A DNA stretch of 64,000 nt from a virus (Duplodnaviria > Caudoviricetes): positions 128,001 to 192,000 of the IMG/VR virus record IMGVR_UViG_3300037067_004891, one strand, 5' to 3'. Shown here in pieces: positions 31,447 to 64,000 of this stretch. Made by a program: the position numbers and the translations under genes. How positions within the stretch are numbered: position 1 is the stretch's first letter; each line of letters opens with the position of its first letter. Below the pieces are notes generated by a model. It had not been told where the DNA came from. It did no database searches and worked only from the letters and a program-made list of their open reading frames with translations.

Positions 31447-32661
31447 TCATTTTATAATTGGAAATAAAACATCTAACCAATTATTTCTTCTTGCTGAATC
31501 ATAAGCTGCACTATATTTTAAATGAAATTCTTTACGACCATTACATTTAATGGATTTTTCTTTACAATTTTCCAAATTCCAAAAATTCTTTTTATTAACA
31601 ACTTTAATCATATGAAAACATATATTATCTAACCAATCATTTCTATAAGCTAAATTAAAAATATATTTATCATTTTTCCTAAAATCTTGTTTAAATTTAT
31701 ATTTTTTAGCTATACTGTTGCAATATTCTTTTGATAGTATATTACTTATATCAATTGGAAATAAGTCATCTAACCAATTATTTTTATATGCAATATTATA
31801 CGCACTACTACATTTTAAATGAAAAACTGTTCTTGTGTTATATTTTAATGATTCTTTTTTAATTTGAATATAATCCCAATATCCTTTTTTGTTTCTAATT
31901 TTATTCATGTGAAAACAAACAACATCTAACCACTTATTTGATAATGCAGCATCATACGCACCACTACTATACTTCGAGAAATCCATTCTATTGTTATATT
32001 TCAACGCTTCATTTTTAACATTTTCAAAACACCATTTATAATTATATGGTGTGGGTCGTGTCATATGAGAACAGATATTATCAATCCATTTATTTCTTAT
32101 TGTAGCTTGATATATGTTTTTATTTTTATATTTGAATTCGCTTCTATGTTTATATTTCAAAGCTTCTTTTGCACAAGTTTCAAATGTATATTTAAGTTCA
32201 CTTCCACCTAATGCACCAGCTTTTACCTTGTTTAAAACACTCCATCCATTGTTTTTATATTTTTCAATATAAAATGTTTCTAATTTTTGAGCTTCTTTTT
32301 TATCGATATATTCAGTTAATTTATAACAAATACCTAAACATGAAGATAACTGTTTATAAACTGAACTTCTTTTATCTACTGAATGATTATATTTTCGTTC
32401 TTCAAAATTATATGTTAAACCAATATATGCTGAGTTATCTTCAAATTCCCAAACATAAATACAACGTTTAACTCTATTACCAAGTATTAACATATGTGAA
32501 CATACGATGTCATACCACTTATTAGATTTTGCAGCACAGTACGCACCATTGCTATATTTTTTGAAATCTTTTTTATATTTATATTTTAGAGCTTCTTCTT
32601 TAACTCTTTCAAAATTCCAATAATACATTGGTTTATTAACTTTATTCATTAAAAACGTCAC
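31447..32661 (-). CDS. GIY-YIG homing endonuclease, paralog of 29340..30521
   Basis: CIYVWEFEDNSAYIGLTYN; same repeat architecture. Confidence 0.8.
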   Translation of the reverse strand: MTFLMNKVNKPMYYWNFERVKEEALKYKYKKDFKKYSNGAYCAAKSNKWYDIVCSHMLILGNRVKRCIYVWEFEDNSAYIGLTYNFEERKYNHSVDKRSSVYKQLSSCLGICYKLTEYIDKKEAQKLETFYIEKYKNNGWSVLNKVKAGALGGSELKYTFETCAKEALKYKHRSEFKYKNKNIYQATIRNKWIDNICSHMTRPTPYNYKWCFENVKNEALKYNNRMDFSKYSSGAYDAALSNKWLDVVCFHMNKIRNKKGYWDYIQIKKESLKYNTRTVFHLKCSSAYNIAYKNNWLDDLFPIDISNILSKEYCNSIAKKYKFKQDFRKNDKYIFNLAYRNDWLDNICFHMIKVVNKKNFWNLENCKEKSIKCNGRKEFHLKYSAAYDSARRNNWLDVLFPIIK

Positions 32662-32751: not shown

Positions 32752-33000
32752 TCATAATTCTAAAAATTCTTTAATTTTTTCTTTTCTTATCAATCTTTTT
32801 ATTTTTATTAGGTCAGAATCATTCTCAATCAAATATAAGTATTTGTCTATTATATACACATTTTCGAATGGTATATCAGATTTTTCAATAAAATTTTCTT
32901 TTAAACAAATCTCAAATTCATTATCAGCTATTCTAATAAAAATTTTACGGTTTAATAAATGTTTGCTATTTATTTTATATCTTTTGTGAAAGAAATCCAC
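32752..33000 (-). pseudogene. Hypothetical gene, 5' end replaced by an IS-end scar
   Basis: Annotated GTG start lies inside the IS hairpin; C-terminal RKEKIKEFL tag. Confidence 0.45.
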
Positions 33001-33067
33001 GAAATCTTTAGTTTAGCGGTAAGTTCATAATCTGGAAAAAAATTTAAGATTTTTTAATTCCATCCAA

Positions 33068-52597: not shown

Positions 52598-52984
52598 ATG
52601 GAAGAAGACATATTAGATATAATAAAAAAGATACAAGAAGCTCGTAATCCCAAATATTTTTTATGGCAAATAATTAAAGATACTGAGTGGTTTACTGCTA
52701 AGTATAATTCTAATATTTTAGTTGGAAAGAAAAATGATGTTGTTTATTTTAATTACGATAAGAAAAATCACACTTTATATTATGATTACAACAAAATATA
52801 CACAGTTTTAGAAACGAAATATCATCTTAACAGATTGAATGCTAATGAAATAATTGGTGGTATGGTGAGTGAACACACAAAAATGAGGGTTGACACAACC
52901 AAGGTGCAGGAGTACAGATATATAAGAATGGTGAGTGAACACACAAAAATGAGGGTTGACACAACTCATTTATATCAATTTTAA
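52598..52984 (+). CDS. Array-fused small protein, copy A
   Basis: 88 codons precede repeat 1; reads through repeat 1, spacer 1 and repeat 2 and stops in spacer 2. Confidence 0.75.
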   Translation: MEEDILDIIKKIQEARNPKYFLWQIIKDTEWFTAKYNSNILVGKKNDVVYFNYDKKNHTLYYDYNKIYTVLETKYHLNRLNANEIIGGMVSEHTKMRVDTTKVQEYRYIRMVSEHTKMRVDTTHLYQF

Positions 52985-53351
52985 TATCTTCCTTAGGTGA
53001 GTGAACACACAAAAATGAGGGTTGACACAACTATTCGCATTGCAATCGCCTTCTTCATGTTCGGTGAGTGAACACACAAAAATGAGGGTTGACACAACCA
53101 AGTATAAACCCGTTGTGCTTCATCATTAGGTGAGTGAACACACAAAAATGAGGGTTGACACAACTGGTGTATTGCGTTTCTCTATTATGTGGGCAGGTGA
53201 GTGAATATACAAAAATGAGGGTTGACACAACATTAGAGAGTTTATAAATGCGAAAAAAGGGGGTGAGTGAATATACAAAAATGAGGGTTGACACAACTGT
53301 TCTATGGTGGTTCAACAGACAACACATTGGTGAGTGAACACACAAAATGAG
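52864..53351 (+). CRISPR. CRISPR-like array 1: 7 full 36-nt repeats, 1 truncated repeat, 7 unique spacers (30,30,31,30,31,30,31 nt)
   Basis: GGTGAGTGAACACACAAAAATGAGGGTTGACACAAC at 52864, 52930, 52996, 53063, 53129; variant GAATATAC at 53196 and 53262; 5' part only at 53329. Confidence 0.95.
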
Positions 53352-62599: not shown

Positions 62600-62744
62600 A
62601 TGGATGATACTTTTGATATAATAAAAAAGATACAGGAAGCCAGAAGCCCGAAATATTTTTTATGGCAAATAATTAAAGATATTGAGTGGGTTGATTCTAA
62701 GTATATTTCTAAATATTTATACAAAAAATGAGGGTTGACACAAC
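62600..62744 (+). pseudogene. Third, internally deleted copy of the small-protein/repeat cassette
   Basis: MDDTFDIIKKIQEARSPKYFLWQIIKDIEW... (stop at 62731) joined to the 3' part of the repeat, ACAAAAAATGAGGGTTGACACAAC (62721-62744). Confidence 0.85.
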
Positions 62745-63009
62745 TATTGGATTTTATTCTCCATACTTATTATAAACCAGAAACTGGTGAATTAATCGTA
62801 CCAGAAAAATGGAAGAATTTTTCGGTAATAGACCCAAACAAATTACCTGCTGCCACACCAAGAGAACTTCTAAAAAAGAAACTGGAACAATTTCTTACAA
62901 GAGATGAATGGAATCAATTGGATATTTATTAAAAAATATAATTAAATAATATTAAATTAATATTTGTCTAATTCAAAAATTATGTTTTACTTTACACAAA
63001 AATAATGAT

Positions 63010-64000
63010 ATGATAGTAACATCATCAATGAAAATAAAAATAATACCAGTGGATGTAATATCCAAAAAGTGGATATTTGATATTTTTAATGTATCTTATA
63101 AGATTCAGAATCGGGCTTATGATATATCACGGATGTTACATCAATATCCAGTAATAATGTTACCTGTTACACCACCCAAATCACAAGTATATAATTTAAC
63201 TACTCAGGAATTTCCTAAAGTTATTACTACTTATCTGAGAGATTGGGTATATCAAGCAGAAAACAATTATAAAAGTGATGTTAAAGCTGGTTTATTATCA
63301 GGTAAAAGAAGTCCAAGACTGTATAAGAAATATGGTGCTACACGTTTTCAATTTTTGAAAAAATCTAATCCAAAATTAATAAAAGAAAATGGTGATTTTT
63401 TTATTCTTATTAACAGTAGAACAAATATCAAATTTAAAATACTATTCGACAAAAAAACAGGACATCTTAAAACTATGTTAAATAGATTTTTGGATTTAGA
63501 AAATAAAAAATACAATCTTAACTCAACTTTTTATATTAAAAAAACCAATAGAAACGAACTGATGTTAATCATATCCTATGAACAAGACATCCAAGGTTAT
63601 GTTGGCATAAATAATAGAGTGATGGGTATTGATATGGGTGTGAGAAGATTTATTTCTTTAAGAATAAATGACATACCAAGATATCAGAAGTCTATTCATA
63701 GTGAGAAATTAGTTCAACAGAAGTATGGTATTGCTATGAAAAATAAAAGGGTACAGGAATCTTCTGTATTAGCTAAATCAGGTCATGGTAGAACAAGAAA
63801 AATGCAGGTTTATAATAAAGTAAAAGATTCTGAAACATCATTTACTAATAATGTACTGGATAAATTATCAAAAGAAGTAATTGAATCTGCTGCAAAACGA
63901 AAAGTTCAACAGATAAACATGGAACGTCTTGATAAGAATTCTATGAAAGAACAAAATTCTTATCTTGGAAGATATTGGAGTGTTATGACTTTGATGAATC
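63010..64000 (+). CDS. Cas12f-like (type V-F / TnpB-derived) RuvC effector, runs off the window end (not in ORF track)
   Basis: Open for 330 codons: GLLSGKRSPRLYK, LIISYE, RuvC-I VMGIDMGV (D208), SGHGRTRK, LSKEVIESA, RuvC-II INMERL (E305), YLGRYWS. Confidence 0.8.
   Translation, partial: MIVTSSMKIKIIPVDVISKKWIFDIFNVSYKIQNRAYDISRMLHQYPVIMLPVTPPKSQVYNLTTQEFPKVITTYLRDWVYQAENNYKSDVKAGLLSGKRSPRLYKKYGATRFQFLKKSNPKLIKENGDFFILINSRTNIKFKILFDKKTGHLKTMLNRFLDLENKKYNLNSTFYIKKTNRNELMLIISYEQDIQGYVGINNRVMGIDMGVRRFISLRINDIPRYQKSIHSEKLVQQKYGIAMKNKRVQESSVLAKSGHGRTRKMQVYNKVKDSETSFTNNVLDKLSKEVIESAAKRKVQQINMERLDKNSMKEQNSYLGRYWSVMTLMN

What the first reader, a model, noticed from the sequence alone, without database searches (positions are those of the whole stretch)
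63010..64000. Unannotated phage-encoded Cas12f-like effector, candidate partner of the dispersed arrays
Seen: an uninterrupted frame from ATG 63010 to the window end with RuvC-I GIDMG (D208) and RuvC-II MERL (E305). Established knowledge: the motifs G-x-x-S-x-x-x-YK, ISY, MGIDxGV, GHGR-x-(R/K) and I-x-ME-x-L followed by a Trp occur in the same order in AsCas12f1-type proteins. The protein does not resemble the two IS1341-like TnpBs in this window. A repeat remnant lies 266 bp upstream. Inference: a miniature type V system with guides supplied in trans from arrays about 10 and 28 kb away, with no cas1/cas2 in view.
Basis: partly seen in the sequence, partly recalled or inferred. Interest (0 to 1): 0.85.

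Follow-up and report, generated by a model that had tools for sequence, protein, structure and literature searches.

The report
Jumbo-phage Cas12f-like nuclease with own array
The open frame is the first 330 codons of a 423-residue Cas12f-like RNA-guided nuclease of a published 421-kb landfill/groundwater jumbo phage; just past the window's end it has its own guide-RNA scaffold and six-repeat CRISPR array, and two of its spacers match a rival virus from the same sample, so it is a real but not unprecedented miniature phage CRISPR system.

Summary
ATG 63010 opens a frame that runs past the window's end to a 423-aa protein with D208/E305/D388, a Zn ribbon and GHGR. By sequence and by predicted fold its nearest characterised relatives are validated Cas12f nucleases (CnCas12f1, Al3Cas12f, AsCas12f), not TnpB.

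The 'guides in trans' interpretation is mostly not supported:
- 217 nt after the stop codon lies the gene's own array of six 36-nt repeats. These differ from the dispersed family-A repeats.
- A 98%-complete relative carries gene plus array and has no family-A repeats.
- The spacer between gene and array holds a conserved tracrRNA-like scaffold, found in five loci. Its pairings with the repeat covary.
- Array spacers 1 and 2 match a 38.6-kb virus (30/31 and 29/29) with 5' ATTR flanks. That virus occurs in the same groundwater run.

A family-A spacer hits the same virus but behind a different flank, so cross-use stays open and unlikely.

The gene-scaffold-array module sits at different sites in two related phages.

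The genome (421,673 bp) and a speculative 'Cas12f1-like' call are already published (PMC12607003). Neighbouring-window notes of this scan saw the same locus. Verdict: a new member of a known kind, of moderate interest.

The parts
62952..63009 (+). Upstream 58 nt that travel with the gene: left edge of the conserved module and presumed promoter region
   Evidence: Homology to the L005 phage begins at genome 190952 (= window 62952). This stretch is 76% identical, against 96% for the CDS.
63010..64000 (+). cas12f-like gene, 423 aa (P0001). Only residues 1-330 lie in the window. The gene really ends at window-equivalent 64281 (genome 192281; L001 1501-2772).
   Evidence: ORF. Pfam Cas12f1-like_TNB 1.6e-15; NCBIfam guided_TnpB 116 bits (cut-off 100). 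PDB sequence hits CnCas12f1 6.6e-36 and Al3Cas12f 1.8e-32. Foldseek top 20 are all Cas12f. D208/E305/D388 and the Zn-ribbon cysteines are invariant.
64000..64000 (+). BEYOND THE WINDOW (placeholder coordinate): candidate tracrRNA at window-equivalent 64274-64498 (L001 2765-2989; genome 192274-192498). Elements: 5' GTTCTTTGA overlapping the stop codon; loop TTGGGT (64299-64304); GGTGAG (64355-64360); CACTCACTAA (64456-64465); anti-repeat blocks ATACCTTT (64466-64473) and GTGGTTTAA (64480-64488). A 140-nt block at 64256-64395 has no substitution against the L005 phage.
   Evidence: 0 differences in 140 nt, against 4.3% in the CDS and 6.5% at third codon positions. It folds into three hairpins, z = -2.9. 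The same ordered elements occur in five loci. Loop with repeat 3' hexamer: 28/30 cells paired, against 6-18/30 in slid registers, with 2 positions changed on both sides. Only one such scaffold exists in the 421-kb record. Expression was not shown.
64000..64000 (+). BEYOND THE WINDOW (placeholder coordinate): CRISPR array B at window-equivalent 64499-64864 (L001 2990-3355; genome 192499-192864). Six identical 36-nt repeats (GATGGG...GCCCAGC) and five spacers of 29-31 nt, in the same orientation as the gene.
   Evidence: The repeat is unique in the genome. Spacer 1 matches virus G002 at 30/31 and spacer 2 at 29/29.
62601..62745 (+). Decayed family-A cassette: N-terminal ~44 codons of the small leader gene fused to the 3' 24 nt of a family-A repeat (62722-62745), with no further repeat. 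It is probably not part of the Cas12f-like module.
   Evidence: It lies outside the segment shared with the L005 phage.

Best explanation
Window 63010 is the start of a 423-aa Cas12f-like (type V-F-like) RNA-guided DNA endonuclease. It belongs to a self-contained, cas1/cas2-less miniature CRISPR module of a Bacteroidota-type jumbo phage, laid out as promoter, gene, tracrRNA-like scaffold and a six-repeat array.

Inferred mechanism:
1. The scaffold RNA starts at or near the stop codon.
2. It pairs with each repeat through an anti-repeat placed right after a conserved CACUCACUAA motif.
3. A hairpin loop (UUGGGU) also pairs with the last bases of the repeat.
4. The protein, probably a dimer like characterised Cas12f, binds this duplex and cleaves double-stranded DNA that matches the ~30-nt spacer next to a 5' T-rich PAM (ATTR in both known targets).

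Its natural targets include a co-occurring 38.6-kb virus, so its role is competition between viruses in a shared host.

Shown: the gene, the catalytic residues, the array, conservation of synteny and scaffold, and the spacer matches. Inferred: expression and ends of the RNAs, the PAM, cleavage and dimerisation.
For: The full ORF has the D-E-D triad and Zn ribbon invariant across the family.

Nearest characterised proteins are validated tracrRNA-dependent Cas12f nucleases. By sequence: 8HR5 CnCas12f1 6.6e-36, 9NZO Al3Cas12f 1.8e-32, 9NZP RhCas12f 1e-30 (identities confirmed in PMC13186708). By fold: the top 20 Foldseek hits are all Cas12f at TM 0.59-0.71, with TnpB ranked 21-28 at TM 0.45-0.52.

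The array lies 217 nt downstream. The same gene-gap-array layout, with a shared repeat 3' signature, occurs at 93%, 39%, 27% and ~33% protein identity.

The scaffold has 140 nt unchanged while the CDS differs by 4.3%. The anti-repeat (67% identity) and the repeat (64%) diverge together. Pair tables with slid-register controls support the pairings.

Spacers 1 and 2 match G002 at 30/31 and 29/29, with flanks TATATTG and TATATTA. 31 reversed-spacer controls gave 0 hits. The target's flanking letters equal loose ends seen in groundwater run X1, which also holds the phage.

There is no self-targeting and no Cas1 or Cas2 in the record.
Against: No RNA data exist, so the tracrRNA, its ends and crRNA processing are predictions. 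The anti-repeat duplex energies are only modest against shuffles (z about -2 in two loci, not significant in L007). The PAM rests on two protospacers. The curated NCBIfam Cas12f2 model is far below its cut-off (91.6 vs 450 bits), and the only curated cut-off passed is the superfamily model guided_TnpB. Identity to any characterised Cas12f is 35% or less. Spacers 3-5 have no known target.
Confidence: 0.8

Rival explanations
1. One reading: the effector, with its single scaffold RNA, also or mainly uses crRNAs from the six dispersed family-A arrays supplied in trans.
For: Family-A repeats share the 3' signature TGAG-GGT...CACAAC with the repeats of this effector family. The record holds only one effector and scaffold of this type. 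CACUCACU occurs only twice in 421 kb, both times in this scaffold, and is complementary to the family-A repeat's 5' GGUGAGUG. The leader segment pairs with the family-A repeat nearly as well as with its own (-17.3 vs -19.9 kcal/mol). A family-A spacer hits the same virus as array B. A decayed family-A cassette lies 265 nt upstream.
Against: The gene has its own array, and the module exists in a 98%-complete relative that has no family-A repeats. The family-A protospacer has a 5' ACAGT flank, and a marginal second one has TGTAC, not ATTR. The family-A repeat end ACACAA mismatches the local loop UUGGGU at its centre. Family-A arrays have their own conserved leader gene and no similar scaffold.
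Confidence: 0.17
2. It is a transposon-type TnpB whose 3' flank encodes an omega-RNA, and the adjacent repeats are incidental.
For: It passes the NCBIfam guided_TnpB superfamily cut-off, and JGI names the homologue an IS605 OrfB transposase. The scaffold overlaps the 3' end of the ORF, as omega-RNAs do. The module sits at different sites in two related phages, and in L005 flank homology resumes exactly after the last repeat.
Against: The six repeats carry five distinct spacers, two of which match a foreign virus. The array is conserved in four lineages. There is no IS200_TnpB model hit for P0001, whereas the six canonical TnpBs of the same genome score 245-358 bits against guided_TnpB. P0001 is 22% identical to the neighbouring TnpB. 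By sequence and fold, Cas12f ranks ahead of TnpB.
Confidence: 0.04
3. The protein is a binding-only or regulatory Cas12f derivative (like dCas12f/'dCas14') that silences targets rather than cutting them.
For: Nuclease-dead Cas12f relatives exist in Bacteroidota and in huge phages (9n9c hit; PMC7162821). Both array-B protospacers are antisense to the target ORFs.
Against: D208, E305, D388 and the Zn-ribbon cysteines are intact and invariant. Two protospacers give no real strand statistic (p = 0.25).
Confidence: 0.05

Closest known systems
Type V-F Cas12f nucleases of the CnCas12f1 / Al3Cas12f / RhCas12f / AsCas12f group (PDB 8HR5, 9NZO, 9NZP, 7WJU)
   Same: Similar size (415-497 aa), WED-REC-RuvC-TNB architecture, D-E-D triad and Zn ribbon. 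The gene-tracrRNA-array order is the same, as are the ~36-nt repeats and the T-rich 5' PAM-like flank. They are the best matches by sequence and by fold.
   Different: Identity is only 20-35%. The N-terminal REC region is shorter than in Cn/Al3. The curated Cas12f2 HMM cut-off is not met. The system is encoded by a jumbo phage, and its close family has only three members among 1.84 billion cluster representatives. Activity, dimer state and tracrRNA are untested.
Phage-encoded type V-F/Cas14-like systems of huge phages (Al-Shayeb et al. 2020, PMC7162821; landfill survey PMC12607003)
   Same: A compact effector next to a short array, no Cas1/Cas2/Cas4, and spacers against other phages. This very genome (421,673 bp) and a 'Cas12f1-like protein' are listed in PMC12607003.
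   Different: Those reports give tool-based or tree-based labels only. The scaffold RNA, the ATTR flank, the identified target virus and the module's changed position are worked out here.
IS200/IS605 TnpB with omega-RNA (ISDra2, PDB 8H1J/8EXA)
   Same: Shared RuvC-TNB core. The guide scaffold begins in or at the 3' end of the ORF, and the unit moves as a compact element.
   Different: There is a multi-spacer array instead of one flank-derived guide, the tracr and crRNA parts are separate, and no TnpA or IS ends were found. The match is much weaker (no phmmer hit at E <= 1; Foldseek TM 0.45-0.52).

Membership tests
Cas12f (type V-F effector) | Split RuvC domain with a D-E-D triad, plus a C-terminal Zn-ribbon (TNB) domain, in a protein of about 400-700 aa | tested here: met
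   423 aa. D208/E305/D388 and C355/C358/C371 are invariant. Pfam Cas12f1-like_TNB scores 57.4 bits against a cut-off of 26.3.
Cas12f (type V-F effector) | Encoded next to a CRISPR array | tested here: met
   Six repeats lie 217 nt downstream. The same layout occurs in L005, L007/L008, L027 and L028.
Cas12f (type V-F effector) | Nearest characterised relatives are Cas12f rather than TnpB or other Cas12 subtypes | tested here: met
   phmmer against PDB chains and Foldseek against PDB. No reference-labelled phylogeny was built.
Cas12f (type V-F effector) | Passes a curated subtype HMM | tested here: not met
   NCBIfam CRISPR_Cas12f2 scores 91.6 bits against a cut-off of 450. No other Cas12f subtype model matched.
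Cas12f (type V-F effector) | tracrRNA with an anti-repeat that forms the guide together with the crRNA | tested here: inconclusive
   A conserved scaffold has covarying pairings, but duplex energies are modest and no RNA data exist.
Cas12f (type V-F effector) | 5' T-rich (or C-rich) PAM and cleavage of double-stranded DNA | tested here: inconclusive
   Two protospacers both have a 5' ATTR flank. Cleavage cannot be tested with these tools.
Cas12f (type V-F effector) | Works as a homodimer on one guide RNA | not testable with these tools
   The one complex-prediction job returned no verdict.
IS200/IS605 TnpB | Curated TnpB models | tested here: inconclusive
   The superfamily model guided_TnpB is passed (116 vs 100 bits). 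IS200_TnpB gave no hit and IS607_TnpB scored 27 vs 350.
IS200/IS605 TnpB | Lies in an IS with TnpA and/or left and right ends, with a single omega-RNA guide taken from the flank | tested here: not met
   There is no TnpA or IS end at the module edges. The guide region is a five-spacer array with foreign targets.

The most novel reading that the evidence does not exclude
The module is a mobile, transposon-like CRISPR unit whose terminal repeat forms its right edge. Its single miniature effector and scaffold RNA also serve the six dispersed family-A arrays, whose first repeat is read in frame by a small leader gene. One 423-aa nuclease would then be programmed by two repeat families against the same rival virus.
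Probability: 0.12. Interest if true: 0.8.

Novelty: new member of a known kind. Interest (0 to 1): 0.45.

Why it matters
At 423 aa, with an apparently complete guide system in about 1.9 kb, this is among the smallest array-associated type V effectors and belongs to a very sparsely sampled branch, so it is a reasonable genome-editing candidate. Biologically it gives a concrete, sample-resolved case of a jumbo phage aiming CRISPR spacers at a co-occurring smaller virus. The module's different position in two related phages bears on how TnpB-like units became CRISPR systems. None of this changes the picture set by earlier huge-phage surveys, and the genome, with a speculative label for the gene, is already in print.

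Tried and rejected
- Homodimer prediction: no verdict, so it is not used either way.
- Sequencing runs: no RNA holder is listed, so there is no expression evidence.
- Rfam at E <= 1 on the locus: no family, CRISPR-DR models included.
- Array B against INPHARED phages: no match.
- Array-B spacers 3 and 5: no match in viral or metagenome contigs, nor in G002.
- Three leader-proximal family-A spacers: no viral-contig match.
- An L005 spacer found only its own array.
- A second family-A spacer matched only 23/29 in a 49%-GC bacterial-looking contig. I treat this as marginal.
- The whole records behind L005 and L007 could not be searched; the IMG/VR copy G001 was used instead.
- The supplements of PMC12607003 hold nothing that ties its 'Cas12f1-like' call to this exact gene.
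- A window-wide duplex scan gave no long anti-repeat. My first automatic picker for the loop motif chose the wrong ATTG in two loci; this was corrected.
- Family-A leaders hold no scaffold like this one.
- The distant relatives L011 and L012 showed no clear array in view, and L013 has an array of another repeat type.
- The idea that the flank after the terminal repeat acts as a homing guide was considered. The corresponding empty site has TTTT, not ATTR, before it, so it is not claimed.
They are now given as placeholders at 64000, with the true positions in the text.

Full report
**Observation.** The + frame from ATG 63010 is open to the end of the window. The window is bases 128001-192000 of a 421,673-bp virus record. 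Read in that record, the frame ends at window-equivalent 64281 and encodes 423 aa (P0001). G98, Y105, D208, G258/G260, E305 and W323 are invariant across 13 family members. So are RuvC-III D388 and the Zn-ribbon cysteines C355, C358 and C371, which lay outside the window.

**What the protein is.** The truncated piece only grazes Pfam OrfB_IS605. The full protein matches Cas12f1-like_TNB (57 bits, cut-off 26) and passes the superfamily model guided_TnpB (116 vs 100). It fails the curated Cas12f2 model (92 vs 450).

Against all PDB chains the best matches are 8HR5 (6.6e-36), 9NZO/9NZR (1.8e-32), 9NZP (1e-30), then AsCas12f and Un1Cas12f. PMC13186708 identifies these as CnCas12f1, Al3Cas12f (from Alistipes), RhCas12f and OsCas12f. 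All are active, tracrRNA-dependent nucleases. ISDra2 TnpB is not hit by sequence.

An AlphaFold2 model (pLDDT 81.7) gives Cas12f structures as its top 20 Foldseek hits (TM 0.59-0.71). TnpB structures rank 21-28 (TM 0.45-0.52). P0001 is 22% identical to the canonical TnpB 1 kb upstream. The genome's six canonical TnpBs score 245-358 bits on the model where P0001 scores 116.

The close family is tiny. Among 1.84 billion cluster representatives only P0002 (94%) and P0003 (41%) are near, and only 8 proteins reach E <= 1e-30. One of the next relatives is a 488-aa Alistipes protein of the Al3Cas12f kind.

217 nt after the stop codon lie six identical 36-nt repeats with five spacers of 29-31 nt (L001 2990-3355 = window-equivalent 64499-64864). 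This repeat occurs nowhere else in the genome.

The dispersed arrays use a different 36-nt repeat, family A. It is found at six sites, plus the half-repeat remnant at 62722-62745.

The gene-gap-array layout recurs in the other lineages:

| Locus | Protein identity to P0001 | Contig | Array |
|---|---|---|---|
| L005 | 93% | 678,337 bp | 5 repeats |
| L007 / L008 | 39% | 233 kb | 10 / 7 repeats |
| L027 | 27% | 44 kb | at least 5 repeats |
| L028 | ~33% | 305 kb | 3 short units |

All these repeats end in a shared signature, TGAnnGGTAnnCnCArC.

**Guide scaffold.** Between the window phage and L005 the CDS differs at 4.3% of sites (6.5% at third positions). In contrast, 140 nt spanning the last 26 nt of the ORF and the following spacer (L001 2747-2886) have no change. 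The 27 nt before the array are 67% identical and the repeat is 64% identical. The unchanged stretch folds into three hairpins (z = -2.9).

Five loci share the same ordered elements:
- GTTCTTTGA, which overlaps the stop codon here and in L007 and follows a TAnnTTTG promoter-like motif in L027 and L028.
- A hairpin with loop ATTGNN.
- GGTGAG.
- A distal CACTC(A/G)CTAA.
- Directly after that, 7-8 of 8 bases complementary to the repeat's ...GGTAT region.

The loop hexamer pairs with the six bases before the last base of the repeat: TTGGGT with GCCCAG or ACCCAA, TTGTAT with ATACAA, and TTGTGC with ACACAG or ACACAA. That is 28 of 30 cells paired, against 6, 18 and 10 in slid registers, with compensatory change at two positions.

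Duplex energies of the leader segment against its own repeat are only modestly better than shuffles (z about -2 in two loci, none in L007). No RNA run holds the locus. The tracrRNA is therefore a well-supported prediction, not an observation. The genome contains only this one scaffold.

**Targets.** Spacer 2 matches IMGVR_UViG_3300037067_012589 at 29/29 and spacer 1 matches it at 30/31. This record is 38,576 bp, with 33% GC against the phage's 25.7%. The two sites are 7.7 kb apart on one strand, inside ORFs, one of which is weakly tail-like. Their 5' flanks are TATATTA and TATATTG, that is ATTR, the kind of T-rich PAM that I recall for AsCas12f-type enzymes (from memory: NTTR).

The target's flanking letters are the loose ends seen in groundwater run X1, which holds the phage at 100% identity, so the two co-occur. 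31 reversed spacers gave no hit. No array-B spacer matches the phage itself. Cas1 and Cas2 are absent from the record.

**The trans-array idea.** Against it:
- The module is complete on its own.
- The 98%-complete relative G001 has the module and no family-A repeat.
- The one good family-A protospacer, which lies in the same virus at 30/31, is preceded by ACAGT.
- The family-A repeat end mismatches the local loop at its centre.
- Family-A arrays carry their own leader gene and no such scaffold.

For it:
- The two families share a repeat signature.
- There is a single effector and scaffold of this type in the record.
- CACUCACU occurs only in this scaffold and is complementary to the family-A repeat's 5' end.
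- Both families target the same virus.

I put it at about one in six.

**Mobility.** The module (58 nt upstream through the array) is 94% identical between the two phages. In L005, however, it lies between flanks that map to genome 160,979 and 161,056 of the window's phage (window 32,979-33,056). That is 30 kb from where the window phage carries it, and those flanks are only 71-86% identical. In L005 flank homology resumes at the base after the terminal repeat. In the window phage the module sits in a variable island that holds unrelated content in G001. No TnpA or IS ends were found. The base before the empty-site 'target' is T, not R, so I do not claim homing.

[quoted passage not shown] Its 678,337-bp SO_2017_megaphage_1 equals the L005 contig length and falls in the Mahaphage clade, with Bacteroidetes as predicted hosts. 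PMC7162821 had already reported new type V-F subtypes in huge phages, the lack of adaptation genes, and phage-on-phage targeting. First-stage notes on the adjacent window saw the C-terminus, the 217-nt spacer and the six repeats.

**Verdict.** This is a real, intact, array-associated Cas12f-like system: a new and divergent member of a known kind.

Noticed in passing
genome 207743-208177 (window-equivalent 79743-80177), minus strand; target G002 position 31694: The leader-proximal spacer of a family-A array matches, at 30/31, the same 38.6-kb virus that array B targets. The match lies in the sense strand of a virion-structural-like ORF and follows a 5' ACAGT flank. Two unrelated array families of one phage therefore aim at one rival.
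   Followed up: partly
window 32979-33056 (genome 160979-161056): This is the 'empty' counterpart of the site where the L005 phage carries the Cas12f-like module. The 77-nt gap loosely resembles the 5' two-thirds of the L005 repeat (AGTTTAGCGGTAAGTTCATAATCTGGAAA), so it may be a deletion scar rather than a never-occupied site.
   Followed up: partly
window 52598-53351 and five other sites (genome 59.4, 162.7, 207.7, 403.9 and 409.8 kb): Each family-A array is preceded by a conserved ~110-130-aa ORF that reads in frame into the first repeat. No effector for these arrays was identified in the record.
   Followed up: partly
genome 321076-322209 (L002 3077-4210), plus strand: A stand-alone, divergent 377-aa TnpB/Cas12-like gene (guided_TnpB 93 bits, below cut-off) with no array beside it. 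It may be the paper's 'Cas12b2-like' call.
   Followed up: no
whole record: Completeness estimates disagree. IMG/VR/CheckV here gives 59%, while PMC12607003 states >95%. The near relative is 676-678 kb.
   Followed up: no
L007 7415-8044 vs L008 7415-7846: The same locus in two samples shares spacers 1-6, but L007 has three more units at the gene-distal end. This points to loss, or gain, at the trailer side.
   Followed up: no
L027 4024-4096: Two full repeats abut with no spacer between them (start-to-start spacing 37), and the first repeat is internally degenerate.
   Followed up: no
L013 4337-4549: A 501-aa distant relative (P0010) is followed at once by an array of a quite different, GC-rich 30-nt repeat (GTGTCACCCACGCGCGCGGGGAGAGGTCGG, spacing 61).
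   Followed up: no
If this holds, it may reflect shared host adaptation machinery. It was not tested.
   Followed up: no
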